Numbered from the stretch's first letter, positions 27,941 through 53,115 are shown. The stretch: 64,000 bases of DNA from an uncultured bacterium (GCA_964456885.1 CAYWDE010000001.1:112-64111), one strand, 5' to 3'. Program-made: numbers and translations. Notes: generated from the sequence alone by a model not told the origin.

Positions 27941-27958
27941 TTGTCCAACGTTGGGCAA
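27941..27958. repeat. P-box copy 4 (TTGTCCAACGTTGGGCAA, one arm mismatch)
   Basis: Read directly, between convergent genes. Confidence 0.85.
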
Positions 27959-27994
27959 AATTAGCAGATAAAATAGACCAGGAGATGGGGGTCA

Positions 27995-28022
27995 TTAACG
28001 GGGGTTTTTGTTCCATTTCTCC
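27995..28022 (-). repeat. R repeat copy f (degenerate; TTAACGGGGGTTTTTGTTCCATTTCTCC)
   Basis: Aligned by eye to the reverse complement of the R consensus. Confidence 0.55.
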
Positions 28023-28045
28023 TTAAACCCCTATTGTAGTGGGTG

Positions 28046-28081
28046 CTGAATAATGTGTCCAACGTTGGACACATTATTCAG
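28046..28081. repeat. P-box copy 5 (36-bp perfect palindrome CTGAATAATGTGTCCAACGTTGGACACATTATTCAG) overlapping the traD_F stop codon
   Basis: Read directly. A half site AACGTTGGA follows at 28092-28100. Confidence 0.95.
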
Positions 28082-29837
28082 ACCCAAAAATAACGTTGGA
28101 TGCATCATTTAATGATTGAATCGATATTTGATCCTTTCTCAAGAATGGTTCGCAAATTCTAGGGATGTCTTGGTATGCCAGCGTGATCTTTGTTATAGGA
28201 AGATTTCCAGGAACTTTTACAAAGGCTTGATGAATGTCGAGGGACTGAATTTCGGTGGCTGAGACTACCGGGGAAACCTTGTTATGGGAGGATAAGTTAA
28301 CACCATCTCTCATCTCGTGGGCCCCGTAAGAAATAGACTCTTGGAATTCCCTCATCTCCCTTTCTCCAAAGGTTTTTGAAATACGCGCAGCGATTTCCGG
28401 ATCTTGTTCTGCAAAAGCTATTCTAGTCGAGCAATTTCCAATAATGATCCGAGTTAAATCCCGCCCATAAATCATTTCCAATTGAGAGGGACTTTGGAGG
28501 GCTAACATTGCGCATCCTCCAAATTTGCGGATTTCAGCGAGACAAGTCTCTAGATCTTTTAGTTTATTCAAGCTAGGAAGTTCATCCGCAACAAACCATA
28601 AGCGTCTATCAAAATTTGGTTCCATTTGGAGAAGGCTTCGCATAGCCGTTGAAAACCAGGCTGAAATGAGAGGCGTTACGGAAGCTCTTTGGCCTGTTGT
28701 TGAGCAGAGAAAAAGCCAGCTGTCCCCTGTCCCTTTTTGGACCCAGTCTCGGATAGAAAACGGGGTTTGAGTATCCTCAAAAAGCTCTAAGCATTCTAAG
28801 AAGGAGGCAGCTATAGCTCGGATCGACCCTGCGGTTCTTTCTGAATTAGTGTCGAGAAAAGAGGCTGCCTTTGTATTTTGCAAGTTCTTATAAAGCTGCT
28901 GAAGAGGAAGATAGAGCAAAAGCTTCACTACTTCGGAGATTTTTCTTTCGACGGCTTTCATTTCCAATGTAGAGCTGAATACTTCTTGAGCGGCTTTTCT
29001 CCAGAAATTCTCGTCTTCGCTATGGCTAGATGGAATAAAGCTTTGAGCCAATGTTTTATAATCATATGGTTCTCGGCATTCACACCAGGGATGCCACGGC
29101 ATTCCCCTTCTATCGAAAGGATTCAGTAAGATATCCTTTCCTTCTCTGAAATACTTGGAAACGAATTCGCCAGAAGTATCCACGATGACAGCTCTTTGCC
29201 CATTCTTCCGGATTTGGGGTAAAATGGTATGGAAGCAATTTGTCTTCCCACTCCCCGTTCCCCCAGATATGAGGATATGCCGTGTTTCAGAATCCTTGAG
29301 AAGAGGCATAGAGCCTAGCTTGAAAGGAGAGGCTTTTCTACCTAAGGTGATCCGCAGTACCATTTGCCAAGGAGCAACTTTTTTCTGGCCTGTGATATGT
29401 TGCTTTCTTCTAGCAACAAGGCCTTTTACAAGAAAAAACAGCATTAAAGCTGAAAAGATTTTCAAAAGCAGCATGGAAGTAGCTTTTAGATTTTCTTTCG
29501 TTTTTTGCCAAAGGACAGTTAGCTTTTTTGCCGAGACCTGTTTTAGCCTGTCAACTCTTATATCAACCGTTTTCCCGGAGTAATGACGATTCTCAATTTT
29601 CCCCCAGAACTCGGTATTAACGGGAACTTTAGCTTCAGAACCCCCCAAAAACTGGGCTTTTCCATAATACCAGGCTGATTCGTAGTATATTTTAGGGATT
29701 TGAACCATGCGGTATCCAAAAAAACTAATCCCGATGGCCAAAGAAGAGAGCATTGCGATCCGGACGACCTGGCGCACCATTCGTACTCGATGAGCCCAAA
29801 TTTGGCCCCCTTCTGCAATTGTTTTAAATATGCCCAT
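28074..29837 (-). CDS. traD_F: type IV coupling protein (TraD/TraG/VirD4 family, F-type TraD-like)
   Basis: Two N-terminal TM segments. Walker A ILISGGTGSGKTN, Walker B RLWFVADELPSL. ILLNPFDRRGMPWHPW. Confidence 0.9.
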   Translation of the reverse strand: MGIFKTIAEGGQIWAHRVRMVRQVVRIAMLSSLAIGISFFGYRMVQIPKIYYESAWYYGKAQFLGGSEAKVPVNTEFWGKIENRHYSGKTVDIRVDRLKQVSAKKLTVLWQKTKENLKATSMLLLKIFSALMLFFLVKGLVARRKQHITGQKKVAPWQMVLRITLGRKASPFKLGSMPLLKDSETRHILISGGTGSGKTNCFHTILPQIRKNGQRAVIVDTSGEFVSKYFREGKDILLNPFDRRGMPWHPWCECREPYDYKTLAQSFIPSSHSEDENFWRKAAQEVFSSTLEMKAVERKISEVVKLLLYLPLQQLYKNLQNTKAASFLDTNSERTAGSIRAIAASFLECLELFEDTQTPFSIRDWVQKGTGDSWLFLCSTTGQRASVTPLISAWFSTAMRSLLQMEPNFDRRLWFVADELPSLNKLKDLETCLAEIRKFGGCAMLALQSPSQLEMIYGRDLTRIIIGNCSTRIAFAEQDPEIAARISKTFGEREMREFQESISYGAHEMRDGVNLSSHNKVSPVVSATEIQSLDIHQAFVKVPGNLPITKITLAYQDIPRICEPFLRKDQISIQSLNDASNVIFGSE

Positions 29838-29903: not shown

Positions 29904-29928
29904 ATTCACCACGCAATGCGTGGTGAAT
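29904..29928. promoter_or_regulatory. 12-bp-stem palindrome ATTCACCACGCA-A-TGCGTGGTGAAT between the ATPase-1 stop and the traD_F start
   Basis: Read directly. Role (terminator or operator) unknown. Confidence 0.4.
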
Positions 29929-29963: not shown

Positions 29964-31412
29964 TCATTTTTTACCCTTCTCTTGAAGAAGATCTCCAAAA
30001 TTGATAATTTTGTCGAAGTAACCGGTATCCAGAACGTTTTCTTCTACCCCATTAACCTGAATAAGAATAGGCCGGATTGAAAAGTGTCTAGGAACCTTTA
30101 GGCGCTTTCTTTTCTCTTCCATTTCATCAATAACTTTGCTGCCTATAGGGTTTTTAGAAAACTTGATTTCACATAAATACAAATTGTGAAAACGAGTTTG
30201 AATCATGTAGTCGATTTGACATCCAGGTTGTCTGCTTGTAGGACTTTGAAAAAAGGGGCCTTCCATCACTATTTCTTCCGCAGAAACACCCACCATTTCC
30301 CATAGAGTTTTACGATTATGCACAACAAGGTTCTCAAACTGTAAGCCCATGATGCCTTCCCATCCAGGAAGTCTATTGAGTATTGAGGTAGAAAGATTCT
30401 CTTTTTCAATTTTAGAACGATTCGGCGCAATATACTTCAGATAAAATCGCAAGTAATTATCGCTTAAACGATAGCGGCTCAGTTTTCCTTCTTTTGCACT
30501 TTTTAGATCCCATGTAAAATCTCTTTTCACGAAGCCAGCTTTGACTAATTCGTCGAGATAATTGCTATATATTCCTCCTTGGTTTTTCCCTAATTCTTTA
30601 CAAATTTGTGCTAGCTCTTTGGGTCCATTCGCGAGACAAGTGACAATCGCTTTATGGCTAGTTTTGCTACGTGAGAAAAGATCAGAAAATATTTCGTCAA
30701 ACTCTCGCACCAGCAATCCTCCCTTGGTAAAACAAAGGTCTCGAATATTTTGTTCTGCAGGAAGATTGGGCTTAATTTGTTCAAGATAGAGTGGAACTCC
30801 CCCGGTTATAGATAAAAGTTTGAATTTTTCATAAGATGCAATACGTTTTTCCTTCGGGTGCCAGAAAGCATCGCAGACGTACAAAGGAAGTTCTTCAAGA
30901 ACAAGATCAATGGTAATTCGTCCCAGAAAGCCGGTACTGCTGAGAATGTTTTTTTCAATCCATGAAGATATTGATCCGCAGAGAGCGATAATTAGATAAG
31001 GATTTTTGCTAAAATACATATCCCAAGCGGTTTTCAATTGGCCTAGGAAATGAGGGTCCTTCCCTCCCATCCATGAGATCTCATCAAATACGATTAGGAT
31101 GCGCCCTTTTTTAGTTTCTTTAGAGAGATGCCAAAAGAGATTACCCCAATCATCTGGCTTAATGCCAGGAATGCCTGCTCTCTCGAGCTGACGTGCAAAG
31201 TCGTTACGTTGAGACTGAGCTGTTGTCTCTCGAACTGGTGGAGTTCCAGAGAAGAAAAAGCTTTTCATTTCTTTTCCAAACTCTGCAAGAAGCCTGCTTT
31301 TCCCGATGCGTCTTCTGCCGCGTACTACGATAAGACTGGCACTATTTTTGTCTAAAAGGCCTTTAAGCCTACTCATCTCGGCTTCCCGCCCGATAAACTG
31401 GGATGGCTTCAT
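29964..31412 (-). CDS. ATP-binding protein, archaeal-ATPase (PF01637-like) N-domain with DUF234-like C-terminal region, paralog 1
   Basis: FIGREAEMSRLKGLL...LIVVRGRRRIGKSRLL (Walker A). VFDEISWM (Walker B). C-terminal QIDYMIQTRFHNLYLCEIKFS nuclease-like/DUF234-like block. Confidence 0.65.
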   Translation of the reverse strand: MKPSQFIGREAEMSRLKGLLDKNSASLIVVRGRRRIGKSRLLAEFGKEMKSFFFSGTPPVRETTAQSQRNDFARQLERAGIPGIKPDDWGNLFWHLSKETKKGRILIVFDEISWMGGKDPHFLGQLKTAWDMYFSKNPYLIIALCGSISSWIEKNILSSTGFLGRITIDLVLEELPLYVCDAFWHPKEKRIASYEKFKLLSITGGVPLYLEQIKPNLPAEQNIRDLCFTKGGLLVREFDEIFSDLFSRSKTSHKAIVTCLANGPKELAQICKELGKNQGGIYSNYLDELVKAGFVKRDFTWDLKSAKEGKLSRYRLSDNYLRFYLKYIAPNRSKIEKENLSTSILNRLPGWEGIMGLQFENLVVHNRKTLWEMVGVSAEEIVMEGPFFQSPTSRQPGCQIDYMIQTRFHNLYLCEIKFSKNPIGSKVIDEMEEKRKRLKVPRHFSIRPILIQVNGVEENVLDTGYFDKIINFGDLLQEKGKK

Positions 31413-31698: not shown

Positions 31699-31720
31699 TT
31701 GTCGCACAGCTGTGCGACAA
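31699..31720. repeat. Q-box copy 1 (TTGTCGCACAGCTGTGCGACAA, compensated arm variant)
   Basis: 22-bp perfect palindrome, 287 bp upstream of the ATPase-1 start. Confidence 0.9.
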
Positions 31721-31891
31721 ATGTAAACGGCTGAAAAATAATTTTTTAAATTGTGGTAGTCACAGAAAAAGGGAAAAATTGTACGCTAAGGCTTGTCTAA
31801 ACATCAGTTCTCTTGCGAGACATTTCGGCATAAAACCCCTTTTGCATAGGTTTTGGCAGATAAATGATCTCTAAAAAATGACTCCAACCTA

Positions 31892-31916
31892 ATTGTCCCG
31901 ACATTGTCGGGACAAT
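31892..31916. repeat. Q-box-related palindrome ATTGTCCCGACA-T-TGTCGGGACAAT
   Basis: 12-bp arms sharing the outer ATTGTC/GACAAT with the Q-box. Confidence 0.8.
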
Positions 31917-31935
31917 CTGTATATGGGTTTTATGA

Positions 31936-31959
31936 AGCAATGGAACAGAAAACTCCGTT
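31936..31959 (+). repeat. R repeat copy b (AGCAATGGAACAGAAAACTCCGTT)
   Basis: Read directly. Confidence 0.8.
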
Positions 31960-32092
31960 CTAGATACTTTTATCCTATCGAGAAAATTGGATTCCGCTAT
32001 TTGGGGATAGACCCAACAATCGTGTCACCACAGGCGCCACTCGATGAGTCCGAACGTGACCATCCTTCTGCAATTGTTTTAAAAAGCCCTAT

Positions 32093-32959
32093 TCAGCTTT
32101 TCTGTTTTCCAGAAGAAATCAAATCTTTAAAAAACTCTCTTAAATCGCCAATTACTTTCTCTAGTTGCACTGGTTCATGAGAAATGCTCTTGAGGAACGC
32201 ATCCCATTTTTCTTTTTTAGTTGGATTTGCGTAAAAGGATTCAGAAAATGCTTGGGGCATGCCTTCAATAACCGTCCAGCGATTTTTAAGAACTTGTCGG
32301 ATAATGCTTTGCAGTTCTTCTCGATCCATATCGAACTGCTGAATCAGAAGCCAAATATCGTAAAAATCCTTCATTCGTGTGTTAGCCAATCCCCAACGAA
32401 CAATGGACTCAAATTTCTCTGCAATCAAAGTTTGTAGAGTATAACCTTTGAGTTCAGGAGCTGGAAGATCAAGAAGAGGTGGATACTTTATTTTAACAGG
32501 TTTAGGTAGAATAGTGTCACTAAACCCAAAATCTATTTGCATTGGAAGTTTTGCTGTAAAAATCTGCGCGGAAAATGAGGCACTCACCCCCTGGTATTCA
32601 GCTTCCATTTGAGTCTCAACTAACTTTAATGAATCGGCTGCATAAATAACACCATCAGGTCCGCCATCAATGGAGCAAATATCTTGTATGATCTTATGTA
32701 AATTAGGGAGAGCATTGGAGGTTTTAGCAAGCAGGTCGATATCAATTGTTGCTCTATGACTCATTGGATCCCATACCATGAGCATGAGCCCACCCTTTAG
32801 ATAAAATAAGTCACGATAGGGAGAAATGCTCAATCGGTATAAGAAACGCTCCATTACATAATATTTCAAGATTTCTTGTACGGGTCTTTTCCGTTGTTGA
32901 GCTAAATGTTTCAAACGACTATAAATCGACTCAGCAATATTCTTTTTTGATTTTTCCAT
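32093..32959 (-). CDS. abiEii: AbiEii/AbiGii-family nucleotidyltransferase toxin (type IV TA), pair 1
   Basis: ERFLYRLSISPYRDLFYLKGGLML...RATIDIDLL is the characteristic DUF1814/AbiEii N-terminal motif. Confidence 0.88.
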   Translation of the reverse strand: MEKSKKNIAESIYSRLKHLAQQRKRPVQEILKYYVMERFLYRLSISPYRDLFYLKGGLMLMVWDPMSHRATIDIDLLAKTSNALPNLHKIIQDICSIDGGPDGVIYAADSLKLVETQMEAEYQGVSASFSAQIFTAKLPMQIDFGFSDTILPKPVKIKYPPLLDLPAPELKGYTLQTLIAEKFESIVRWGLANTRMKDFYDIWLLIQQFDMDREELQSIIRQVLKNRWTVIEGMPQAFSESFYANPTKKEKWDAFLKSISHEPVQLEKVIGDLREFFKDLISSGKQKS

Positions 32960-32961
32960 CT

Positions 32962-33567
32962 CTATTGGCTCATGATTGTTTCCATGATTGGCTGAAGAAT
33001 TTTTTCAACTCGATTTAACCGTGCATATTCAAACAATCTATCGATGTTAATGCTTTTCCTCCGTGAATACATTTTCAATGCTTCAAGCACTATATCCATT
33101 CCAATTTTTTTACGAAATTTGACACAATCCGCTAATGTCTTTTCCAGATTATATATCTTAACTGGGTATCCCCCAATTATCTCGGTTGAAATCCCCGAAT
33201 TATATCCCTTTGCAGAATACCTAAAATATCGTAGTGGAGGATAATCTAGACGGGATTTTCTGGCTTTTATTGGGATTGCAACATATACAAAATGGGGGTT
33301 TTGTGTAGTCATTTCATAGTAAGAAAGAGCTGAGATTAAACAGATAACTCCATGGGGAATTTTTTTGGAAACAAGAACTAAATCTGGTTCAGAAAAATCT
33401 GGAAATTCAGCTAGCCTATAAACCCCTTTCGCGAGTGGCTCCAGGATCTTTTGATCGCGCATTTGATATAGAGTTCGGGGATGAATGCCGAGCCGGATAG
33501 CTTCAGATGTCCGAAGCAACCCATGGTTGTCTTTAAAAATCTTTACAGCTTTCTCTATTGGGCTCAT
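32962..33567 (-). CDS. abiEi: AbiEi-family antitoxin/transcriptional regulator, pair 1
   Basis: N-terminal wHTH GLLRTSEAIRLGIHPRTLYQMRDQKILEPLAKGVYRL. Lies 2 bp upstream of abiEii. Confidence 0.85.
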   Translation of the reverse strand: MSPIEKAVKIFKDNHGLLRTSEAIRLGIHPRTLYQMRDQKILEPLAKGVYRLAEFPDFSEPDLVLVSKKIPHGVICLISALSYYEMTTQNPHFVYVAIPIKARKSRLDYPPLRYFRYSAKGYNSGISTEIIGGYPVKIYNLEKTLADCVKFRKKIGMDIVLEALKMYSRRKSINIDRLFEYARLNRVEKILQPIMETIMSQ

Positions 33568-33685
33568 TGGATAGAAATGTCTATAAATATTGTCTTTTAT
33601 CTACATTCTTATCCAAAAAAACGAGATTTGTCAAGGCCATTTGTGAAAATAGACTGTTTTATGATCTGCTTTTTCTATTTTTTCT

Positions 33686-33711
33686 AATTGTTCCACAGCT
33701 GTGGAACAATT
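33686..33711. repeat. Q-box copy 3 (26-bp perfect palindrome AATTGTTCCACAGCTGTGGAACAATT)
   Basis: 119 bp upstream of the abiEi-1 start. Confidence 0.95.
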
Positions 33712-33759
33712 GTAAATACTTGGAAAATAGCTAGTTAATGTTTTATACAAGGCTTAGAG

Positions 33760-33884
33760 TTTAGGAGCCACCGGAATAAAAACTCCGTTATCTGAGCCGG
33801 GCTCCCCCAGGGGGAATTATGCGGTGACCATCTGGGCTCGTTCTCCTTAACGGAGTTTTCTGTTCCATTGCTCCCTACCCCCCA
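33760..33884. repeat. MITE-like unit: two inverted R repeats flanking a 53-bp spacer
   Basis: TTTAGGAGCCACCGGAATAAAAACTCCGTTA (33760-33790) and TCCTTAACGGAGTTTTCTGTTCCATTGCTCCC (33844-33875). The spacer holds TCCCCC-A-GGGGGA. Confidence 0.7.
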
Positions 33885-33955
33885 TAGTGCCGCAAGCTGT
33901 GGCACCGTTTTAAGTCTCCTGTATCAGGGCTCAAGCCTTTTGTTAACAACATCTT

Positions 33956-33984
33956 AATTAGTGCCATCACTGCTGGCACTAATT
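33956..33984. repeat. hairpin AATTAGTGCCA-TCACTGC-TGGCACTAATT (second copy, loop inverted)
   Basis: Same stem as 20573-20603. Confidence 0.85.
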
Positions 33985-34508
33985 GAGGGTGGGCCGTGAT
34001 TCTGAAGGAATGCGCCAGAACTGGTCTTAAATACTTCACTACAAAATGGTTTTGTCTCTTGGGTAGTATTTATAGATGAAATCTCCTTGTTGGCAAGAGA
34101 TGCGATTCCCAACCCTCCTTCTTCCTCTGATTACGACAAAGCTTGCTGATTTCTTTCTTAGTAAGAGGCTTAAATTGCCCAGCTCTCTTTTTCTTCCTAT
34201 AGACTTCATTCACACCGCTATTTTATGTCATTTCCATGAGGTAAAAAAAGGGTCTTAGATTACCTCATAGGAATAACAAATGCCAATTTTGTGAGAAATG
34301 CATGGCGTAAATCGAATGGTAAAATAAACTTTTAATTTTATTCTCGATTGGAATCGCATCAATCTGACCGGTGACTACATGTTGCATAGCAGTATCAAGA
34401 CCAAGTCCTGGTAAGATCACTACGAGTATTGCCAGGGGCCTTAGCGTACGATTTTTTACAAATTCTGAGGCTACCCCCTCTTCTCTTTTCTAAGACGCCT
34501 CTATTTGA

Positions 34509-34540
34509 TCCTTAACGGAGTTTTCTGTTCCACTGCCCCC
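34509..34540 (-). repeat. R repeat copy d (TCCTTAACGGAGTTTTCTGTTCCACTGCCCCC)
   Basis: Read directly. About 90 bp downstream of the ATPase-2 stop. Confidence 0.85.
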
Positions 34541-34627
34541 TAACCCCCATAATTAGCATGTTAAATGGGTTCAAGAAGACGAGAAAGCCGCTCTATCTTC
34601 GGAAGTTCGTACTTAATTTTTTCGTTA

Positions 34628-36130
34628 TCAGATCTCTTTGAATAGATCTTCAAGCATAACTTGATTTGCTACTATTTCTTCTGAGTACATTGTTGGTTGA
34701 AGACCAAAAGTAGTCACCATAGCTAGAAAAAGCTGTTTTTGCGTTCTTGTCTGTTTTCGAAAGATGTCCATTTTTTTCAGTAAAGCTTGCGCATAAGCTT
34801 TATCGATTACAAAAGGTTTGTCAGAACATTTGATTTCGCAAATTGTAATTGTTCCATCGGGACGATCGAAAAGTAGATCGATCTGCGCTCCTCCCTCATC
34901 TGTCTTAGATCTAGGTCTATAACGCCAGGTGCCAGCAATCGAACCTGGATCTAACTTTAGCGCCACGCGAATTTGATCGATGTGCTTGTAGCATATGGAT
35001 TCAAACGCTATGCCTGCCCAACTTTTCCAGGCGGGGCGTTGAGATAGCGAAAGCCAAAATCCTTTATGTGCCGCCTTTTTTGCGATCGTTTTCAAGTTGG
35101 GTTCAATCCAGTGTAAATAGAAAAGGCAATATTCATCATCGATTACGTAATAAACCCCTTTATCTTTATGCCCATATGGGACAAGACTAGTTATAAATCC
35201 AGCTTCTTCTAGTTGTTGGAAGCGATGAACTGTAGTTCCTCCAGGAGGAAGTTTAGATTTGGCAATTAAATCGGCTTGGCCAATCCCATATCGATGCGAT
35301 GCAATAATTCTAACGAGATCTATGTAAGGTTTGGGGTCTTCAAAAAGAGAAGCAAAAAGTCTTCCAAATTCTTTAACTAGAGCGCCGCCATTTTGAAAAC
35401 ACAGTTTATCTATACATTGGTGCGCAGAGAGCCCTTTGCGAATAAAAGACCAGTAAAGCGGTACTCCCCCGAAAACGGTATAGAGATCGAGAATTTGACG
35501 ATGTTCGAGATGGATGTGGTGCTCAGTCAAAAATTTTTTTGTTTCAATGAGAGAAAAAGGTTTTAGATGGATCGTGCAAGTAGTCCTGTTATGAAGCCCA
35601 CCTTTATTGTTAATGATTTTCTCAATGATCCAGGAAGTCGCTGAGCCGCAAACAATGAGCTTAAGTCTAGGATCGAAAACCCAATAGCGATTCCAATATA
35701 GTTCTAGAGCCGTAAGGAGTCTTGAACGAGGGGTCATCATCCAAGGCAGTTCGTCAAAAAAGAGTACGACTTTTTTATTCTTCGGTTGTTTTGCAACAGC
35801 TTGTGTGAGGTCTTCAAAAGCATCACGCCAGCGCTTTCTAGGCGAGATAGGCGCACCTTGATAAAAAGTTGTCCCTATTTGAATCGCAAATTCTTCGAGT
35901 TGTTCATGCAAAGAACCTTTTTGAAGACCTGTCACATGAAAAACCGCGCAAGGGACTGTGTCCATAAAATTTTTAATCAAATAGGTCTTTCCAACTCTTC
36001 GGCGTCCGTAAACAACGACAAATTCAGCCTTTTTAGAGCTAATAACGTCTTTTAAGGCCTCTCGCTCTGTTTCCCGTCCTATGATAGGGCCGACGAGAAT
36101 TGGTTCCTCATTATCTTTCTTTTTAGTCAA
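34628..36130 (-). CDS. ATP-binding protein, archaeal-ATPase/DUF234-like, paralog 2
   Basis: IIGRETEREALKDV...FVVVYGRRRVGKTYLIKNF. LFFDELPWM. C-terminal QIDLLFDRPDGTITICEIKCS. Confidence 0.65.
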   Translation of the reverse strand: MTKKKDNEEPILVGPIIGRETEREALKDVISSKKAEFVVVYGRRRVGKTYLIKNFMDTVPCAVFHVTGLQKGSLHEQLEEFAIQIGTTFYQGAPISPRKRWRDAFEDLTQAVAKQPKNKKVVLFFDELPWMMTPRSRLLTALELYWNRYWVFDPRLKLIVCGSATSWIIEKIINNKGGLHNRTTCTIHLKPFSLIETKKFLTEHHIHLEHRQILDLYTVFGGVPLYWSFIRKGLSAHQCIDKLCFQNGGALVKEFGRLFASLFEDPKPYIDLVRIIASHRYGIGQADLIAKSKLPPGGTTVHRFQQLEEAGFITSLVPYGHKDKGVYYVIDDEYCLFYLHWIEPNLKTIAKKAAHKGFWLSLSQRPAWKSWAGIAFESICYKHIDQIRVALKLDPGSIAGTWRYRPRSKTDEGGAQIDLLFDRPDGTITICEIKCSDKPFVIDKAYAQALLKKMDIFRKQTRTQKQLFLAMVTTFGLQPTMYSEEIVANQVMLEDLFKEI

Positions 36131-36340
36131 TTTAAGTCGCTTATAATAAGTTTGTTAAACATATATTGGTGCAGGCGCTGCGTTTGAGCATTTTATATTT
36201 GGCAGATCAACACATGTTTTTTGTTTCACCTGCTGTTTATAACAGTAACAAACGCGGCAGATGAACACAAACGATTTTAATATAGGCTTTTCCACGATAT
36301 GGCTGCCTTCACAAGGGCATTTATGCAGCAGTTGCTGCGC

Positions 36341-36366
36341 AATTGTTCCACAGCTGTGGAACTATT
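36341..36366. repeat. Q-box copy 4 (AATTGTTCCACAGCTGTGGAACTATT; 18-bp perfect core 36345-36362)
   Basis: About 215 bp upstream of the ATPase-2 start. Confidence 0.9.
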
Positions 36367-36982
36367 TAAAGTGTTGTGCATCGATCAAGCCTCTCATGAG
36401 AAATCCCATAAAATGTAGAAAACAAAGGCCTCCCAGTAGTTTGAAGGGGTCGATAAAACTCATGGCTAAAGAGATGGCGGGGCTTCTTCTCACTATTTTT
36501 GCGAGCAAAGAGGCTCCTAACCACCACAGATATTGAATGAAAATAAGTAGGGGAAAAAAGGGAGTCTGCTACGCTACAAAAGCCAAAACGAACTGATTTT
36601 TCTCTTTCTACAGCGAAGCCATCTCTAAACCACGAAACAGTAATTAAGGCCAAAATTCCAAATATCAGGAAAGGAGCATATTGAGAAAACTTTTTGAGAT
36701 TTTCTATTGTGAACCAGAAATTCTCATCTTCGCTATGGCTAGATGGAATAAAGCTTTGAGCCAATGTTTTATAATCATAGGGTTCTTGGCATTCACACCA
36801 GGGATGCCACTGAGCCCCTCTTTTATCAAAAGGGTTCAATAAGAAATCCTTTAGAAGGGGCATAGAGCCTAGTTTGAACCGATCCCAATGGCCAAAGAAG
36901 AGAGAACTGCGATCCGGACGACCCTGGCGCACCCGATAAGCCCAAATTTGCCCCCTTATGCGATCGTTTTAAATAAGCCCAT
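36366..36982 (-). pseudogene. mosaic remnant: three 5' fragments of a traD_F copy fused to the 3' part of a second traS-like gene
   Basis: DNA 36716-36852 aligns with 28999-29135, 36853-36880 with ~29290-29325, and 36880-36982 with 29721-29837. Downstream FTIENLKKFSQYAPFLIFGILALI aligns with FTMENLRKFSLYAPYLTLGLIAII of ORF 39252-39728. Confidence 0.8.
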
Positions 36983-37148
36983 GCATTACCCCAATCCCCA
37001 AAAATAGCCCGTTGAAGTCTTTCATGTCTATCGACCCATAATCGCTTCCAAATTTGGGCTTTATCAAGATATTTTTCCACGATTTCAAAATACTTACCCA
37101 TTCATTTCCCCAGGAGAGGCAAGGCTCTATTCTTAACATATTCTTAAA

Positions 37149-37170
37149 TTGTTCCACAGTTGTGGAACAA
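37149..37170. repeat. Q-box copy 5 (TTGTTCCACAGTTGTGGAACAA, central mismatch)
   Basis: 176 bp upstream of the abiEi-2 start and ~48 bp from the minus-strand ORF start at 37101. Confidence 0.9.
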
Positions 37171-37345
37171 ATGTGCGACCGTCTGAAAACAATCGATTAA
37201 ATTACGTAGCAGCTGTGTACCTATATGGGGCAGCTCATGAAAAGGATTGTAACACGAAAATCCCTTATAATAAAATATTTATGGATGGTTCTATTTAATC
37301 TTTAAAACATACCCAATTGACTTAATTGGGTATGTTTTGTAGAAT

Positions 37346-37945
37346 ATGGCTATGAGAAAGCTAAAGTACATGAAGCTGTTAGAGCCGTTCCATAATGTCC
37401 CCTTCTTTACCAGCGAAGAAGCAGAAAAACGGGGCATTCCTAGACACGCGCTTGCTTATTTGGAAAAAAGGGGAGATCTGGAAAGGGTTTTTCCTGGAGC
37501 ATATCGTTTTTCTGAATACACACCAGAGGTCGAATTTCAATGGGAGAATTTAGGTCTCATTGCAGCTAGCGTCCCTGAAGGCGTTATCTGTTTAATTTCT
37601 GCCCTCGTCTTTTATGATTTGACTGATCAAGTAATGAGAGAAATTTGGCTTGCAGTTCCGCACAAATCTCATCCACCTAAACGGCCTAACACTAGAATTG
37701 TCAGGATGCGAAACATTGATCTTGGGAAAACCCGCATTACTCTTGGTGAATACCAAGTACAAATTTTCGATAGAGAGCGCTGCATTATAGATGCTTTTCG
37801 TTATCTAAGTAAGGAAATCGCAATCAAGGCGCTGCAAAGGTATTTTCAAAGCAGAGCAACTAAACCTGACCCAAAAAAACTGGGCGCATATGCAAAAAAA
37901 TTACGCGTAAATATAACCCCTTATATTTTATCCTTTACAACATGA
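37346..37945 (+). CDS. abiEi: AbiEi-family antitoxin/transcriptional regulator, pair 2
   Basis: FFTSEEAEKRGIPRHALAYLEKRGDLERVFPGAYRF. EGVICLISAL is shared with pair 1, otherwise divergent. Confidence 0.85.
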   Translation: MAMRKLKYMKLLEPFHNVPFFTSEEAEKRGIPRHALAYLEKRGDLERVFPGAYRFSEYTPEVEFQWENLGLIAASVPEGVICLISALVFYDLTDQVMREIWLAVPHKSHPPKRPNTRIVRMRNIDLGKTRITLGEYQVQIFDRERCIIDAFRYLSKEIAIKALQRYFQSRATKPDPKKLGAYAKKLRVNITPYILSFTT

Positions 37946-38802
37946 CATCAGACGCAGAAAAATCCTTTAAAGCCAAACTCCGCGCAATCGCCAAAGAAAA
38001 AAATCGCGATCCTGCAGACTTTTGGCAAGGTCTTACATTAGAGCGCTTTCTGGTCCGATTAGCTAAATCAGAATACTCGAAGAGCTTTATCCTTAAGGGA
38101 GGCATCCTCCTATCAAAATACATTGAAATTGGCAGAGAGACAACCGACCTGGATTTTTTAGCTCAAAAAATCAGCAATCAAATCAACAAACTGAAGGTTG
38201 TTTTTGAAACAATTGCCAGCATTGATCTCCACGATGGGTTCTCTTTTCGGGAGATTAAAGTGAATGAACTTGCTCATCCGCATATGGGTTATCCGGGAGT
38301 GGAGATATCCATGATGGCCTATTTCGGTAAAACAAGGTTTAAAGTGGCCATCGATATTGGATTTGGAGATATCGTCAATCCAATCAAATATGCGATTCCT
38401 CTCACAACCTCTTCCAAGGGAGATCTTTTCGAACGAAGCGTCAGTCTATCTTGTTATCCTAAAGAATTTATTTTTGCCGAAAAGTTAGAGACTGTTATCT
38501 ATAGAGGCTCATTTAATAGCCGCATGAAAGATTTCCATGATCTTTATTCTATAACAGCCTCACCAACTTTCTCTTCTTTTCACGATCTCGAGGCGATCAT
38601 CCGCCTGGTATTTGAGCATCGAAGAACCAAACTCGCATTACCCATTCTTTTTACAGAGGATGAAATGCTTCGAATGCAAAATTTTTGGAACGAGTATCTC
38701 AGAAGCCTACGTCCAGAGCATGTATCCTCCCTTCCTGGGGATATTGCCGATCTCATTTCTAAAATCAACGGATGGCTTCGATCCAACACTAGGTTAATTT
38801 GA
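37942..38802 (+). CDS. abiEii: AbiEii/AbiGii-family nucleotidyltransferase toxin, pair 2
   Basis: ERFLVRLAKSEYSKSFILKGGILL...RETTDLDFL. 4-bp overlap with abiEi-2. Confidence 0.88.
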   Translation: MTSDAEKSFKAKLRAIAKEKNRDPADFWQGLTLERFLVRLAKSEYSKSFILKGGILLSKYIEIGRETTDLDFLAQKISNQINKLKVVFETIASIDLHDGFSFREIKVNELAHPHMGYPGVEISMMAYFGKTRFKVAIDIGFGDIVNPIKYAIPLTTSSKGDLFERSVSLSCYPKEFIFAEKLETVIYRGSFNSRMKDFHDLYSITASPTFSSFHDLEAIIRLVFEHRRTKLALPILFTEDEMLRMQNFWNEYLRSLRPEHVSSLPGDIADLISKINGWLRSNTRLI

Positions 38803-38854
38803 TAAGGTGGATAGTCGTATGTCTTGGAAGATTCGTAGTGCAAAAGATGGGGAC

Positions 38855-39148
38855 AATTTGCGCACCCTGATAAAAAGTTTTACCGAGTTGGTTTGCAAAT
38901 TCCTCTAGTTGCTCTGATAAAGATCCCTTTTGGAGGCCAGTTACATGGAAGTAGACGCAAGAGATGGAATCCGCAAAATTCTTGATGAGATAGGTTTTTC
39001 CCACCCTATGATGTCCGTAGATAGCAATAAACTTTGCTTTATTTGAGACTACCAGGTTTTTCAAAATTTTTAGTTCTCGCAAACGACCAAGGATTTTATC
39101 TGGGCCTCTGGGCTGCTTCCCGCGAGATTTATTTATTTTTATTCCCAT
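38855..39148 (-). pseudogene. 3'-truncated third copy of the ATPase/DUF234-like gene (first ~98 codons only)
   Basis: KAKFIAIYGHHRVGKTYLIKNFADSISCVYFHVTGLQKGSLSEQLEEFANQLGKTFYQGA is close to residues of ATPase-2. Homology stops ~50 bp from the abiEii-2 stop. Confidence 0.8.
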
Positions 39149-39251: not shown

Positions 39252-39728
39252 TTATTTCGCTCCAAGGCTAGCCAGCCCTCCAATAATGAAGCCCAGAATA
39301 TGCACCAGGCAAAACCCTCCGAAAGCTCTAAGCGGATTAAAAAAGCTCATGACGAGAGGGATCGCAGGGCTTCTTTTTACTATTTTTGCAAATAGAGAAG
39401 CTCCTAGCCAATACAAATATTCAAGCACTACGACTATAAACATCATGCCATCAGCAAAAAAGTAGAAGCCATAACGAATTGATTGGCTTTTTTCTCCGAC
39501 AATAATATCTCTTATAAATGAAGCGAAGATTATGGCAATGAGCCCTAATGTGAGGTATGGAGCATACAAAGAAAATTTTCTGAGATTTTCCATCGTGAAG
39601 ATGTCAGGGGCTCCTTTTTCTTTTGGGAAAAAGTAATTGAATGTTTGAATCAGTTTCGGATAAGGGAAAATCTCGGAATAATGAGGAACTGTATTTTCAA
39701 TTTTTTTGGGTTGTTCATTCATTTTCAT
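39252..39728 (-). CDS. small polytopic inner-membrane protein directly after traG; positional analogue of the F TraS entry-exclusion protein
   Basis: Start ATGAAAATG overlaps the traG stop (track start 39797 lies inside traG). 3-4 TM segments. No sequence motif, so this is a positional inference only. Confidence 0.45.
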   Translation of the reverse strand: MKMNEQPKKIENTVPHYSEIFPYPKLIQTFNYFFPKEKGAPDIFTMENLRKFSLYAPYLTLGLIAIIFASFIRDIIVGEKSQSIRYGFYFFADGMMFIVVVLEYLYWLGASLFAKIVKRSPAIPLVMSFFNPLRAFGGFCLVHILGFIIGGLASLGAK

Positions 39729-47216: not shown

Positions 47217-48281
47217 TTAGGGAAGGATCCCTTCTAAAGTTGTTGCTTTTACAGCTGGTTTAACCATATCCAGACAGCAGTGTTTCTTTGTCCAGATTAG
47301 ATAAACAAAATCCTCCCCGCCGTAGGGGAAGCTCTTTCCTGAGCCCCAAAACAGATCGCTTTTCCCAAGGGGTTGACAAGGGGCCTTTGTGTTAGCGATC
47401 GGCTGGACAAGTTGGGTTTTATAAATCGTTTTCTTGATTCTTGGCATGAGGGCCTTATCGCAGAAATTATCCTCAGCAAAGCCGAGAGCCATCCCCAATG
47501 AGTGAAGCTTGCCCAAAAGTCTATGAACTAGCAGATAGCTCGCTTGAACTGTCCCCAAATGGTGAGGAACATGGCCAACGAATGGATAAAGCGATCCCAT
47601 GCACCCAGCGCACCAGAATAGTTCGTCCATAGGAGCCCCAGCGGAAGAAGCCGCACAATCCGGAATACAAGCAACCTGGGCTAATGGATTCGAAAACAAG
47701 AAGATTTCAGGATTCAACACAGAAGCCCACTGATCGTCATCCCAAAATGGGTCAAATTCAGACAAATAGGAGACGGCCATTTCCGAGGACTCAAGACAAG
47801 AGAAGTCGGTCAGTATTCCTAGCCAGTGCAGAATAGGGAAATTGTAATAGTGGACATTATAAAAGCTAGACCTCCCAGAATCCCCTACATTTGCGATGGC
47901 TCCCCGTTTTTTAATGCCAGCTTTCGAAATTGTAGTTCCTCCCCAAGCAGTTAATTTATAGGGAGTCATCGTTACATCAATTAAAGCCGTTGGCTCCCAG
48001 AAAGCTAACGGGATCCCTAATTTCGGAGGAGTCCCTGCGCAGCTGCAAAAAGGGGTGAATTTATAATGCACAAGATCTTTATGCTCTGGAGTTACATTAG
48101 CTCCTGAGATATGAATCGGGAAAATACAGCCCCAACAGACATCCGTTATGGGGTTAACGAACTTTCCTTGTTCAGCAGAGCTAGAGGAATTCCAAAGAAG
48201 ACAACAGCCTAAAAACACATAGTGGATGGTCTTCGAATTTGTCCAACGTTGGACAAATTTCGTATACTCAATGGTCAACAT
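47217..48281 (-). CDS. traU: F-type TraU
   Basis: GKFVNPITDVCWGCIFPIHISG and FCSC motifs. ATG at 48281 (track start 48290 is GTG). Confidence 0.9.
   Translation of the reverse strand: MLTIEYTKFVQRWTNSKTIHYVFLGCCLLWNSSSSAEQGKFVNPITDVCWGCIFPIHISGANVTPEHKDLVHYKFTPFCSCAGTPPKLGIPLAFWEPTALIDVTMTPYKLTAWGGTTISKAGIKKRGAIANVGDSGRSSFYNVHYYNFPILHWLGILTDFSCLESSEMAVSYLSEFDPFWDDDQWASVLNPEIFLFSNPLAQVACIPDCAASSAGAPMDELFWCAGCMGSLYPFVGHVPHHLGTVQASYLLVHRLLGKLHSLGMALGFAEDNFCDKALMPRIKKTIYKTQLVQPIANTKAPCQPLGKSDLFWGSGKSFPYGGEDFVYLIWTKKHCCLDMVKPAVKATTLEGILP
48236..48259. repeat. P-box copy 6 (24-bp perfect palindrome AATTTGTCCAACGTTGGACAAATT) in the first codons or leader of traU
   Basis: Read directly. Translates as FVQRWTN. 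Confidence 0.95.
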
Positions 48282-48737: not shown

Positions 48738-49046
48738 ATGAATTCATACAAAATAATTATGAATATGGGAATATTCATATGTTTAACTTTTTTCCCATCT
48801 GTACATGCTATGGCGGGGACTCAACTAGCTCAAATGGACATGAAAGGAGTATGCGAGAATTTATCTCCAGAAATGCAACAATTTGCTAATAAATTAAATA
48901 TGAAGAACAAAATGCTGTTTTGTAGCGAATTTACTGATTCTCAAAGAACCCAAGCAATGCAAATGGCTGCTGGTACTGGTAGTTATAAAAACTCAAAAAT
49001 GTCACCTAATAAAAGTGTAGAAACAATTGCAGCTAAGATTAAATGA
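48738..49046 (+). CDS. small exported protein, paralog of 52741-53073
   Basis: Signal peptide FFPSVHA. MLFCSEFTDSQRTQAMQMA aligns with KIFCEDFNDAQRQQAMQIA. Confidence 0.6.
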   Translation: MNSYKIIMNMGIFICLTFFPSVHAMAGTQLAQMDMKGVCENLSPEMQQFANKLNMKNKMLFCSEFTDSQRTQAMQMAAGTGSYKNSKMSPNKSVETIAAKIK

Positions 49047-49106
49047 GATTTTTAAGGACTTTCATAATCAACAAACTTCCGCAGAGTAGAACTATCTGTA
49101 TTATAC

Positions 49107-49135
49107 CTCGGCCCTAAAAAGGCCGAGATTTTCTT
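49107..49135 (+). terminator. Rho-independent terminator (CTCGGCC-CTAAAAA-GGCCGAG followed by ATTTTCTT)
   Basis: 7-bp GC-rich stem plus a T-rich tail, between convergent genes. Confidence 0.65.
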
Positions 49136-49150
49136 CGCTAATCAGTAAAA

Positions 49151-49393
49151 TTAAGAAGTTTGACCACTACATTTACTTCCACAATAGCAGGTATCGCCAC
49201 ATTGGCAATTTTGTCCACACTGGCAAGTTTGAGAAGCACATTTGCGGCCTGTCTTAGAAAAGCATCCACAATTTTTTTCTTTTGTGCATGTACAGGATTG
49301 ACAAGGACAATTAGGTCTAGCTACCGCTGGTGCGGCTGAAAGCGAACTAATTACCATAAGAGAAGCACCTAAAAAGGTGACCAATGTTTTCAT
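49151..49393 (-). CDS. exported Cys-rich (metallothionein-like) small protein
   Basis: Signal peptide MVISSLSA-AP. The ~56-residue mature part has 14 Cys in CxC/CxxC arrays (CPCQSCTCT...CQCGQNCQCGDTCYCGSKC). Confidence 0.7.
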   Translation of the reverse strand: MKTLVTFLGASLMVISSLSAAPAVARPNCPCQSCTCTKEKNCGCFSKTGRKCASQTCQCGQNCQCGDTCYCGSKCSGQTS

Positions 49394-49497
49394 TTATATC
49401 CTCTTTTTTCTTTTTACTATACTCCTGTATGGTATATTTAAATAAAAATTATGTCAATTTCTGGGGAATTTATTTCGGAGTTAAACTAAGAGAACTC

Positions 49498-52592: not shown

Positions 52593-52740
52593 ACTTTTTC
52601 TGAATAAAGAAAATAAGACAAGAAAAGCAAGTGAATTTATTAGGATATTTGATTTTGGCAGTCCTTAACTTGTATAAAAAGTAAAAAGCTCCTATGTTGA
52701 AGAAAAACTTTCCTTCATAACCAAATTAAGGGAGTGTCAT

Positions 52741-53073: not shown

Positions 53074-53115
53074 GCCATCTTGAGATGAAAAGATGATTTT
53101 AATTAGGGCCAAAAC

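What the first reader, a model, noticed from the sequence alone, without database searches (positions are those of the whole stretch)
31699..37170. Q-box: a conserved palindrome (AATTGTTCCACAGCTGTGGAACAATT) with a conserved flank precedes unrelated cargo units; arms show compensatory change
Copies are as follows:
- 31699-31720: TTGTCGCACAGCTGTGCGACAA;
- 33686-33711: perfect 26-mer;
- 36341-36366: one mismatch pair;
- 37149-37170: central C-to-T;
- 31892-31916: the related ATTGTCCCGACA-T-TGTCGGGACAAT.

In copy 1 both arms changed together (TC/GA to CG/CG), so dyad symmetry is preserved. Copies 1, 3 and 5 also share about 25 bp of one-sided flank, TTCTTAA(A)TT...ACAA[AT]TGTAAA...CTGAAAA[TC]A.

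They lie 119-287 bp upstream of abiEi-1, abiEi-2, ATPase-1 and ATPase-2. AbiEi proteins are known to autorepress through inverted repeats. However, the two AbiEi proteins here are highly divergent and the ATPase genes have no AbiEi. A shared, nearly identical site therefore argues for a common trans-acting regulator, or for a cassette-boundary or recombination site (integron-attC-like logic) used to load cargo.
Basis: partly seen in the sequence, partly recalled or inferred. Interest (0 to 1): 0.7.

Follow-up and report, generated by a model that had tools for sequence, protein, structure and literature searches.

The report
Shared palindrome heading plasmid defence-gene slot
A 26-base palindrome repeated four times in a chlamydial conjugative plasmid marks the start of each defence-gene module in a swap-prone slot, and the same palindrome accompanies defence genes in unrelated amoeba-dwelling bacteria; it probably binds a protein, but which one is unknown.

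Summary
Four copies of TTGTNNCACAGCTGTGNNACAA lie at 31699, 33688, 36343 and 37149, where 0 are expected by chance.

The window is an F-type conjugative element of Chlamydiae. The Q-boxes lie in a 9.4-kb stack of defence genes (two AbiE pairs and PDC-S27 ATPases) between a small post-traG gene (ORF181) and traD. Relatives carry other content in that slot: nothing, yhcG/DUF1016, or a type II restriction-modification pair. The closest relative has a Q-box at the head of the slot, in front of yhcG.

AbiEi is excluded as the binder. AbiE-1 orthologues on chlamydial chromosomes keep their own promoter and inverted-repeat operator but lack Q.

The 26-mer also occurs in Babeliales, in one chlamydial chromosome and in a Bacteroidota genome, usually in or beside yhcG.

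Best reading (about 0.4): a dyad-symmetric protein-binding site overlapping an extended -10 promoter that faces the cargo and traD.

Main rival (about 0.28): a recombination site. Scars of traD and ORF181 show that the cargo was stacked through homology in the flanking genes. A sister palindrome, S, shows better crossover signatures than Q.

The parts
31699..31720 (.). Q1: TTGTCGCACAGCTGTGCGACAA (CG/CG variant), 286 nt upstream of ATPase-1
   Evidence: It is the same variant as the Q-box of relative L048, apart from one arm mismatch there.
33686..33711 (.). Q2: perfect 26-mer AATTGTTCCACAGCTGTGGAACAATT. It lies about 52 nt upstream of the -35 of the abiE-1 promoter.
36341..36366 (.). Q3: one arm mismatch. 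It abuts the stop codon of the ORF181 paralogue and lies 210 nt upstream of ATPase-2.
37149..37170 (.). Q4: central C>T. It lies between the divergent starts of a small ORF plus traD pseudogene (- strand) and abiEi-2 (+ strand).
31721..31760 (-). Flank shared by Q1, Q2 and Q4 (also 33712-33750 and 37171-37205). It contains the -35-like TTTACA at 31722-31727 and 33711-33716. The -10-like TGn[GA]ACAAT lies in the Q arm.
31892..31916 (.). P5: ATTGTCCCGACATTGTCGGGACAAT. Same outer arms as Q, with a 7-nt asymmetric centre.
33956..33984 (-). S palindrome AATTAGTGCCA-TCACTGC-TGGCACTAATT (11-7-11). A second copy lies at 20573-20603 (+).
33886..33906 (.). Hybrid palindrome AGTGCCGCAAGCTGTGGCACC, with S-type arms and a Q-type centre
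29964..31412 (-). ATPase-1: ATPase_2 plus ArsR-type HTH, matching PADLOC candidate defence gene PDC-S27
32093..33567 (-). AbiE-1 module (abiEi 32962-33567, abiEii 32093-32959). Its own promoter is TTGACA at 33634. Its own inverted repeat lies at 33569-33614.
34628..36130 (-). ATPase-2 (PDC-S27), 27% identical to ATPase-1
37346..38802 (+). AbiE-2 module in inverted orientation. Its own promoter and 35-nt palindrome lie at 37304-37338.
38789..39148 (-). N-terminal fragment of a third PDC-S27-type ATPase, truncated by AbiE-2
36366..36990 (-). Scar made of traD 5' fragments (36714-36990, 82-90% identical to traD) fused to an ORF181 paralogue (36455-36713, 66%)
32039..32093 (-). Scar: 45-55-nt remnant of the traD 5' end, directly after the abiEii-1 stop codon
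39252..39722 (-). ORF181, a small membrane protein after traG. It forms the left border of the cargo slot.
28074..29837 (-). traD (type IV coupling protein), the right border of the slot. It is preceded by the conserved hairpin at 29904-29928 and followed by a P2 palindrome at 28046-28081.

Best explanation
The Q-box is a dyad-symmetric protein-binding site (operator type). It overlaps an outward-facing extended -10 promoter at the head of a defence-gene slot in the tra operon of a chlamydial conjugative element.

The slot lies between ORF181 and traD. Whatever lies downstream of Q (defence cargo and, finally, traD) would be under the control of a dimeric factor supplied in trans. That factor is not AbiEi.

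The four copies are homologous slot-head sequences. They were stacked when slot segments from several related plasmids recombined through traD and ORF181 homology.

The element probably entered this plasmid lineage together with a yhcG/DUF1016 defence gene, with which it travels in other phyla.

What is shown: the anatomy, the comparative positions, the exclusion of AbiEi and the scars. What is inferred: promoter activity, protein binding and the identity of the binder.
For: 1. The palindrome is fully symmetric through its centre, and symmetry is kept in every variant. In 19 of 22 genome hits the two free dinucleotides were complementary, although the pattern left them free. The flanking AA and TT, which the search did not require, are present in 11 of the 12 non-coding copies outside the window that I tabulated. 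The functional unit is therefore the 26-mer.

2. In the five plasmid copies (Q1-Q4 and the L048 copy) the arm facing the cargo, TGTG[GC][AG]ACAATT (= TGn + [AG]ACAAT), is intact in all five. All three mismatches fall in the other arm or the centre.

3. A -35-like hexamer lies 17-18 nt upstream: TTTACA in Q1 and Q2 (found by the scan), and TTTAAA in Q3 and TTGTAA in L048 (read by eye).

4. Position. Q lies 0 nt (Q3) or 57 nt (L048) after the ORF181 stop codon. It is upstream of ATPase-1, AbiE-1, ATPase-2, the traD pseudogene and yhcG.

5. Q is better conserved (at least 21/22 among Q2-Q4) than the neighbouring coding DNA (66-90%) and the cargo proteins (27-30%).

6. The stacking scars (two traD 5' remnants and one ORF181 paralogue) show that each Q came in with a slot segment from a related element.

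7. A sister palindrome P2 (TTGTCCAACGTTGGACAA) shares the outer half-site. It occupies tra-operon boundaries at the same places in relatives, in the manner of a plasmid-wide operator set.
Against: - No regulator was identified.
- The promoter scan finds no more sites in the region than in shuffled sequence (16 found, 15.0 expected).
- Each cargo gene has its own better promoter closer to its start codon.
- The -35 element is poor in Q4 and in the copies outside this plasmid lineage.
- In Babeliales the palindrome lies inside the yhcG reading frame or between convergent genes, where a promoter makes little sense.
- Symmetry at the two variable positions could come from template-switch correction of quasi-palindromes rather than from selection by a dimeric protein.
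- Two relatives with a filled slot have no Q.
Confidence: 0.4

Rival explanations
1. Q belongs to a family of core-type recombination sites, together with S and P5. The common format is AATT(A)-GTNNCN-[6 or 7 nt]-NGNNAC-(T)AATT. The sites would be used, probably by a tyrosine recombinase supplied in trans (Xer-like), to move defence-gene modules. This resembles the pdif modules of Acinetobacter plasmids or integron cassettes.
For: - The 10-6-10 layout matches core-type sites, and the sister sites S and P5 have 7-nt asymmetric centres.
- In L048, yhcG is flanked by two direct S copies.
- The left flank of L048-S2 matches only window S at 20578. Its right flank (90% over 55+ nt) matches only window S at 33960. 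Homology breaks at the edges of S.
- In Babeliales locus L004, yhcG is flanked by two direct Q copies, 26 nt before the start codon and 6 nt after the stop codon.
- Around Q1, similarity to L048 is an isolated 28-nt island.
- ATPase-2 sits between Q3 and the S region, exactly where yhcG sits in L048.
- The modules are toxin-antitoxin and defence genes, which are typical dif-module cargo (established knowledge).
Against: - The CAGCTG centre is symmetric and gives no directionality.
- Pfam found no tyrosine recombinase among the window ORFs. The only recombinase is a serine resolvase 29 kb away, and there is no Q-like site beside it.
- No comparison shows a breakpoint inside Q. The homology between L048 and the window ends at the ORF181 stop codon, and the offset of Q from that stop differs (0 versus 57 nt).
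- Q1, Q2 and Q4 share flanks on both sides.
- The scars point to recombination in the flanking genes.
- Q does not resemble the dif consensus, and GC skew does not switch at Q in Babeliales loci.
Confidence: 0.28
2. Q has no function of its own here. It is a piece of yhcG-derived DNA. The conserved YhcG peptide region (VPQLVGQ/NCPTAVGQ) is near-palindromic as DNA. Template-switch correction keeps it a perfect palindrome, and it survives as a relic wherever yhcG genes were replaced.
For: - yhcG occupies the slot in the closest relatives.
- Q lies inside yhcG in at least seven Babeliales loci.
- Relic flanks of yhcG surround isolated Q copies in L017, L006 and L008.
- Euzebyella yhcG has GTCCCACAGCTGGTGGGAC at the same codons in another reading frame, and a paralogue in L029 has a different palindrome there.
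- Quasi-palindrome correction is an established mutational process and would produce compensatory-looking changes.
Against: - The palindromes are intact while their flanks have decayed. In L008, 26/26 bases are intact against about 18/28 in the relic flank. This is subject to ascertainment, because the loci were found by exact match.
- Q3 and the L048 copy have no yhcG-like flank.
- Five copies in two related plasmids keep the cargo-facing arm intact.
- No significant coding-relic similarity was found around the window copies once the palindrome itself is set aside.
Confidence: 0.17
3. Q is a centromere-like or ParB-type site. Its half-site TGTTCCAC equals a Bacillus subtilis parS half-site, and it would be bound by a partition or KorB-like protein of the plasmid.
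For: - Half-site identity read from the sequence, with the parS consensus taken from established knowledge.
- The sister palindrome P2 has the 8+8 spacing of parS and a plasmid-wide distribution.
Against: - Q has four extra central bases relative to parS.
- The variable dinucleotide falls on parS position 4, which is conserved.
- Pfam found no ParB in the window.
- The copies are confined to 5.5 kb.
Confidence: 0.05
4. Q is the operator through which each AbiEi antitoxin represses its own operon.
For: - Q lies 118 and 175 nt upstream of the two abiEi genes, and 225 nt upstream of a third, unrelated abiEi in chlamydial MAG L016.
- AbiEi proteins are known to bind inverted repeats (established knowledge).
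Against: - Orthologues of AbiE-1 (70-86% identical) in L043, L044 and L047 share the module from its -35 to the abiEii stop codon, including the inverted repeat GGATAAGAATGT..ACATTCTTATCC, but they have no Q.
- AbiE-2 has its own 35-nt palindrome across its -35.
- Q4 is oriented away from abiEi-2.
- The ATPase and yhcG copies have no AbiEi next to them.
Confidence: 0.03

Closest known systems
Operator sets of conjugative-plasmid global regulators (RK2 KorA/KorB OA and OB sites)
   Same: Short perfect palindromes are repeated at promoters and operon boundaries of a conjugative plasmid. They are better conserved than the surrounding genes, and some overlap -10 or -35 elements.
   Different: No KorA-, KorB- or ParB-like gene was found. 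The Q copies are confined to the cargo slot rather than spread over the backbone; the sister palindrome P2 has the backbone distribution.
pdif modules of Acinetobacter plasmids (XerC/XerD sites bounding resistance and toxin-antitoxin modules)
   Same: Discrete modules carrying toxin-antitoxin and accessory genes are separated by 26-29-bp sites with inverted arms around a 6-7-bp centre. The modules differ between related plasmids.
   Different: The Q arms are unrelated to dif. The centre is symmetric. Three copies share flanks beyond the core. No recombination junction was observed at Q.
Integron attI/attC cassettes with the Pc promoter
   Same: A fixed upstream element is followed by exchangeable genes that may depend on it for expression.
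   Different: There is no intI. The RYYYAAC/GTTRRRY cores are absent. Q is a perfect palindrome without extrahelical bases. Each cargo module keeps its own promoter.
Defence-gene hotspots in conjugative elements and defence islands (for example the variable hotspots of SXT/R391 ICEs)
   Same: A fixed position between conserved transfer genes holds different anti-phage systems in related elements. Exchange occurs through flanking homology.
   Different: Here the hotspot lies between the post-traG gene and traD of a chlamydial F-type system. In one sublineage it carries a conserved palindrome at its head.
AbiEi operators (paired inverted repeats in abiE promoters)
   Same: An inverted repeat lies upstream of abiEi.
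   Different: Q lies upstream of, not within, the abiE promoters. Orthologous modules lack it. The real promoter-overlapping repeats are separate sequences.

Membership tests
AbiEi operator | Inverted repeats overlap the abiE promoter next to abiEi | tested here: not met
   Q2 ends about 52 nt upstream of the -35 element, and Q4 lies 125 nt upstream of the abiE-2 promoter. Separate repeats at 33569-33614 and 37304-37338 overlap the promoters.
AbiEi operator | The site is conserved together with the cognate AbiEi in orthologous modules | tested here: not met
   L043, L044 and L047 (AbiEi 73-80% identical) have no Q within 420 nt upstream.
Integron attC/attI | Core sites RYYYAAC and GTTRRRY, an imperfect palindrome with extrahelical bases, and an adjacent intI gene | tested here: not met
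   The Q arms (GTTCCAC / GTGGAAC) do not fit the core motifs, and the palindrome is perfect. No Phage_integrase hit was found in the window ORFs.
Xer/dif-type site (pdif module) | Two roughly 11-bp arms around a 6-bp centre | tested here: met
   AATTGTTCCA-CAGCTG-TGGAACAATT (10-6-10), read from the sequence.
Xer/dif-type site (pdif module) | Arms related to the dif consensus (..ATAA / TTATG..), and the chromosomal copy at the replication terminus | tested here: not met
   No resemblance to dif (consensus from established knowledge). There is no consistent GC-skew switch at Q in 13 Babeliales loci, although the loci are only 8 kb long, so this is weak evidence.
Xer/dif-type site (pdif module) | Homology between related elements breaks at the site | tested here: inconclusive
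   This is seen for the sister site S. For Q only an isolated 28-nt island is seen, and Q1, Q2 and Q4 share flanks on both sides.
Serine invertase/resolvase crossover site (hix, gix, res site I) | A site of about 26-30 bp (12-2-12) with the recombinase gene and accessory sites adjacent | tested here: inconclusive
   The 12-2-12 format fits. The only serine recombinase (2424-3056) is 29 kb away, and there is no Q-like site beside it.
parS/ParB centromere | A 16-bp palindrome TGTTNCACGTGAAACA and a parB gene | tested here: not met
   The half-site matches, but four extra central bases are present. No ParB domain was found.
Intrinsic terminator | A G+C-rich hairpin followed by a T run | tested here: not met
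   The terminator scan reports none at any Q copy, and the flanks are purine-rich.
REP/MITE-type dispersed palindromic repeat | Tens to hundreds of copies per genome | tested here: not met
   Each of the three Babeliales chromosome-scale records of 1.3-1.4 Mb (L017, L018, L021) has exactly one exact copy. Decayed copies were not counted.
Sigma-70-type promoter with extended -10 | TGn plus a -10 hexamer with A at position 2 and T at position 6, and a -35 hexamer 16-18 nt upstream | tested here: inconclusive
   The scan calls Q1 and Q2 (TTTACA-18-TGn[GA]ACAAT). However, the region as a whole has no excess of such sites over shuffled sequence. No transcript data are available.

The most novel reading that the evidence does not exclude
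Q, S and P5 are the recombination sites of an undescribed cassette system that loads single-gene anti-phage defences (yhcG/PDC-S02, PDC-S27 ATPases, AbiE) into plasmids and chromosomes of amoeba-associated bacteria across phyla (Chlamydiae, Babeliales/Dependentiae, Bacteroidota). It would use a recombinase supplied in trans, or possibly the PD-(D/E)XK nuclease YhcG itself. In effect it would be an integron-like or dif-module-like exchange system for defence genes.
Probability: 0.2. Interest if true: 0.8.

Novelty: new variant of a known kind. Interest (0 to 1): 0.5.

Why it matters
Defence genes are known to gather in hotspots of mobile elements, but how they are expressed and exchanged there is mostly unknown. 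This is especially so in obligate intracellular bacteria such as environmental Chlamydiae and Babeliales.

Here a defined 26-bp element sits at the head of such a hotspot. It recurs with the same defence-gene family in at least three phyla, two of which share amoeba hosts.

If it is an operator, it points to a shared control input for plasmid-borne defence genes and for the coupling protein TraD. If it is a recombination site, it would be a new cassette system.

Either reading can be tested with short DNA probes and reporter constructs.

Tried and rejected
- **Search of PLSDB with the 22-kb region:** megablast found no match.
- **tRNA and Rfam scans:** nothing relevant. The only weak hit was a chance miRNA-hairpin match on Q2.
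- **PLSDB homologue of ATPase-2:** the closest one (Paracaedimonas plasmid, 45% identical) has no Q-like site upstream.
- **Short-query blastn of two Q variants against PLSDB:** only chance partial hits.
- **IMG/VR scan:** one asymmetric hit, presumably chance.
- **Literature search for the sequences:** no paper found.
- **dif hypothesis for the single-copy Babeliales sites:** no GC-skew switch at Q.
- **DnaA-box and parS readings:** rejected because the variable dinucleotide falls on positions those proteins require.
- **Resolvase res-site idea:** no related repeats beside the resolvase gene.
- **Hidden tyrosine recombinase or regulator among ORFs without Pfam hits:** nothing found at E up to 10, except a weak CI-type HTH hint in ORF 19843-20334. 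That ORF has no paralogue in the window.
- **Coding-relic test of the window Q flanks against YhcG:** not significant once the palindrome-encoded residues are discounted. One apparent downstream match turned out to be the AbiE-1 operator.
- **Homology between the nuclease ends of the ATPases and YhcG:** not detectable by BLASTP.
- **Alternative arrangements of the same element in other samples:** only short contigs with the same gene order were found.

Full report
**1. Observation**

The pattern TTGTNNCACAGYTGTGNNACAA, allowing up to 2 mismatches, hits only four places: 31699, 33688, 36343 and 37149. Dinucleotide-preserving shuffles give 0 hits.

- Q2 (33686-33711) is a perfect 26-mer.
- Q3 has one arm mismatch.
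- Q4 has a central C>T.
- Q1 differs by TC/GA>CG/CG and keeps its symmetry.

All four copies have the same orientation relative to that flank. This is the orientation of the tra operon (- strand).

**2. Genomic context**

Pfam annotation shows an F-type conjugative element.

- Transfer genes on the - strand: traE/K/B/C, trbC, traU/N/F/H/G, then a small membrane ORF (ORF181, 39252-39722), and finally traD (28074-29837).
- Other genes: a MobA/TraA relaxase, a serine resolvase and an inserted copper-resistance block.

TraD homologues are from Chlamydiae: Protochlamydia, Rhabdochlamydiaceae and Chlamydiales MAGs.

The 9.4 kb between ORF181 and traD holds the following, read along the - strand:

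1. An ATPase fragment, interrupted by AbiE-2, which is inverted
2. Q4
3. traD 5' fragments fused to an ORF181 paralogue
4. Q3
5. ATPase-2
6. TIR-like repeats and the S palindromes
7. Q2
8. AbiE-1
9. A 45-55-nt traD 5' remnant
10. A TIR-like repeat and P5
11. Q1
12. ATPase-1
13. A hairpin
14. traD

PADLOC classifies the ATPases as PDC-S27 and confirms both AbiE pairs. The two ATPases are 27% identical, and the two AbiEi proteins are 30% identical.

**3. Relatives**

The same slot differs between related elements.

| Locus | Relationship to the window | Slot content | Q present? |
|---|---|---|---|
| L038, L039 | TraD 70-72% identical | A different 281-aa ORF, then traD after 24-40 nt; no cargo | No |
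| L049-L053 | ORF181 62% identical | yhcG/DUF1016 | No |
| L054 | ORF181 69% identical | C5-methyltransferase plus HNH endonuclease (type II restriction-modification) | No |
| L048 | ORF181 86% nt, traD 77% nt | ORF181, 57 nt, Q (AATTGTCGCGCAGCTGTGCGACAATT), S, yhcG, S, hairpin, traD | Yes |

The slot is therefore a defence-gene hotspot. In the sublineage that contains the window and L048, a Q-box sits at its head in front of different cargo.

Window 33985-33909 is 90% identical to the post-yhcG S region of L048. ATPase-2 therefore occupies the place that yhcG occupies in L048.

The traD and ORF181 remnants next to the modules show that slot segments from several diverged relatives were stacked by recombination within the flanking genes.

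**4. AbiEi is not the binder**

AbiEi-1 has many orthologues (70-86% identical) on chlamydial chromosomes.

In L043, L044 and L047, similarity to the window runs from the module's own -35 to the abiEii stop codon. It includes the inverted repeat GGATAAGAATGT..ACATTCTTATCC. No Q-like site lies upstream.

AbiE-2 has its own 35-nt palindrome across its -35.

**5. The palindrome elsewhere**

An exact scan of 596 Gb of genomes with the two dinucleotides left free gave 22 loci. I estimate about 9 chance hits for 18 fixed bases. In 19 of the 22 loci the free dinucleotides are complementary.

About 12 loci are Babeliales/TM6 and one is a chlamydial MAG. All of these carry AATTGTCCCACAGCTGTGGGACAATT or the CT/AG variant. 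The metagenome scan returned mostly the same loci.

The contexts are as follows.

- **Inside yhcG:** the palindrome encodes NCPTAVGQ in seven Babeliales orthologues.
- **On both sides of yhcG:** locus L004.
- **With short yhcG-like relic flanks:** L017, L006 and L008.
- **Next to a truncated yhcG:** L028.
- **Upstream of yhcG in Euzebyella:** 85 nt upstream, CG/CG variant. That yhcG also has an internal near-copy in a different reading frame.
- **Upstream of an unrelated AbiE pair:** 225 nt upstream, in a chlamydial chromosome, L016.

A second yhcG paralogue in L029 has a different palindrome (AATTGTGCAAGCACTGCTTGCACAATT) at the same codons.

DUF1016 is a defence-island and mobile-element cargo gene (PMC9881135, PMC4316617; PADLOC PDC-S02).

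Caveat: these loci were found by exact match, so perfect conservation of the 22-mer is partly a consequence of how they were found. Three observations are free of this bias: the symmetry of the free dinucleotides, the flanking AA/TT, and the enrichment in Babeliales.

**6. A wider family**

Q, P5 (31892-31916), S (20573-20603 and 33956-33984) and a hybrid site (33886-33906) share the format AATT(A)-GTNNCN-[6 or 7]-NGNNAC-(T)AATT. Among the chlamydial loci, this format occurs only in the window, L048 and L016.

S has an asymmetric 7-nt centre and flanks yhcG as direct repeats in L048. Its two flanks in L048 are found separately at the two window copies, and homology breaks at the edges of S. 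S is therefore a better candidate crossover site than Q.

**7. Mechanism**

*For an operator/promoter reading.*
- Q is completely symmetric, including its centre.
- The cargo-facing arm is intact in 5 of 5 plasmid copies. It reads as an extended -10 element (TGn[AG]ACAAT).
- A -35-like hexamer lies 17-18 nt upstream in four of the five copies.
- Q holds a conserved position at the head of the slot.
- Its conservation exceeds that of all neighbouring DNA.
- The parallel P2 palindromes sit at tra-operon boundaries in all close relatives.

*Against the operator/promoter reading.*
- No binder is known.
- The promoter scan finds no excess of sites over shuffled sequence.
- The cargo genes have their own promoters.
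- The intragenic copies in Babeliales do not fit a promoter.

*For a recombination reading.*
- The core-site layout fits.
- The behaviour of S supports it.
- Site-yhcG-site cassettes occur in both L048 and L004.

*Against the recombination reading.*
- The centre is symmetric.
- No recombinase was found.
- No breakpoint falls within Q.
- Three copies share flanks.
- The stacking scars lie in the flanking genes.

A third reading is that Q is a yhcG-derived relic that keeps itself palindromic by template-switch correction. This cannot be excluded.

I put the operator/promoter reading at about 0.4, the recombination-site reading at about 0.28 and the relic reading at about 0.17.

**8. Verdict**

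This is a real, non-random element that is conserved across phyla and linked to defence genes. The operator logic is plausible, but AbiEi is not the binder.

The element does not meet the defining features of attC, dif, parS, a terminator or REP repeats.

It is best filed as a new variant of plasmid operator-type palindromes at a defence hotspot. A meaningful chance remains that it belongs to a new recombination-site family.

Noticed in passing
window 7689-7714, 19738-19769, 24849-24878, 27942-27957, 28046-28081, 48236-48259, 63154-63169, 63314-63329; L048 460, 12822, 13898, 15872; L049 2382, 13453; L038 1357, 9969: A second palindrome family, P2 (TGTCCAACGTTGGACA, extended to as much as 36 bp), has 8 copies across the window. 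It recurs at the same places in relatives: directly after the traD stop codon and at the start of traU. L038 carries a dyad-preserving variant (TTTCCAACGTTGGAAA). One copy lies inside the relaxase gene. The distribution looks like a plasmid-wide operator or centromere-type site set.
   Followed up: partly
window 20573-20603 and 33956-33984; L048 9635-9655 and 10871-10895: The S palindrome AATTAGTGCCA-GCAGTGA-TGGCACTAATT (11-7-11, asymmetric centre) flanks yhcG as direct repeats in L048. Homology to the window breaks exactly at its edges, with the left and right flanks found at different window copies. This is the signature of site-specific recombination.
   Followed up: partly
window 29904-29928; L048 about 10970-10995; L049 about 11633-11655; L054 3239-3262 and 3628-3644: A hairpin (ATTCACCACGCAATGCGTGGTGAAT) upstream of traD is conserved in all relatives whose slot is filled. 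The stem shows co-varying changes. L054 has two copies bracketing a small ORF.
   Followed up: partly
window 20399-20440, 20670-20704, 27992-28034, 31922-31959, 33844-33886, 34509-34551; also 31755-31792 versus 34438-34475: A 40-nt repeat (GGGAGCAATGGAACAGAAAACTCCGTTAAGGA) occurs in both orientations. With neighbouring sequence it forms inverted ends of roughly 200 nt around the AbiE-1 segment. This could be MITE or IS ends, or a composite transposon. No transposase was seen.
   Followed up: no
window 48738-55296: A copper-resistance block is inserted in the tra operon between trbC and traU. It comprises a multicopper oxidase (49498-51243), an outer-membrane efflux protein (51240-52592) and a P-type ATPase (53116-55296). 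It is bracketed by two paralogous small ORFs (48738-49046 and 52741-53073, 45% identical). Homologous oxidase and OEP genes lie next to traD in relative L039.
   Followed up: no
L009, L010, L011, L018, L021, L024, L025 (yhcG codons about 105-113); L029 2720-2746; L007 3871-3889: Babeliales yhcG genes carry the 22-26-nt palindrome inside the reading frame. A paralogue has a different palindrome at the same codons. The Euzebyella gene has nearly the same DNA in another reading frame. Third-codon identity in the 60 nt upstream is only 0.53.
   Followed up: partly
L019 3030-3121; L014 5480-5600: Bacteroidales genomes have tandem arrays of four to five adjacent 22-23-bp palindromic units of the same general form (..GTCNCAC-N4-GTGNGAC.. 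or TGTG[AC]CA..TG[GT]CACA). They lie next to housekeeping genes. Their meaning is unknown.
   Followed up: no
L043 4780-4860, L047 4780-4860: The chromosomal orthologues of AbiE-1 lie beside the 3' part of a tRNA gene and degraded integrase genes. An S-like half-site (GTGCCATCACTG) sits between the tRNA gene and the abiE promoter.
   Followed up: no
window 1718-2049 and 9677-9828 / 11052-11203: Three tandem 106-nt repeats with internal 27-nt subrepeats lie downstream of the first ORF. A separate 152-nt direct repeat (92% identical) lies 1.4 kb apart, downstream of the relaxase gene.
   Followed up: no
window 19843-20334: A 163-aa ORF has a weak CI-repressor-type HTH hint (E = 0.12). It lies 74 nt downstream of a P2 palindrome and next to an S site. 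It is a candidate regulator, and no paralogue of it exists in the window.
   Followed up: partly
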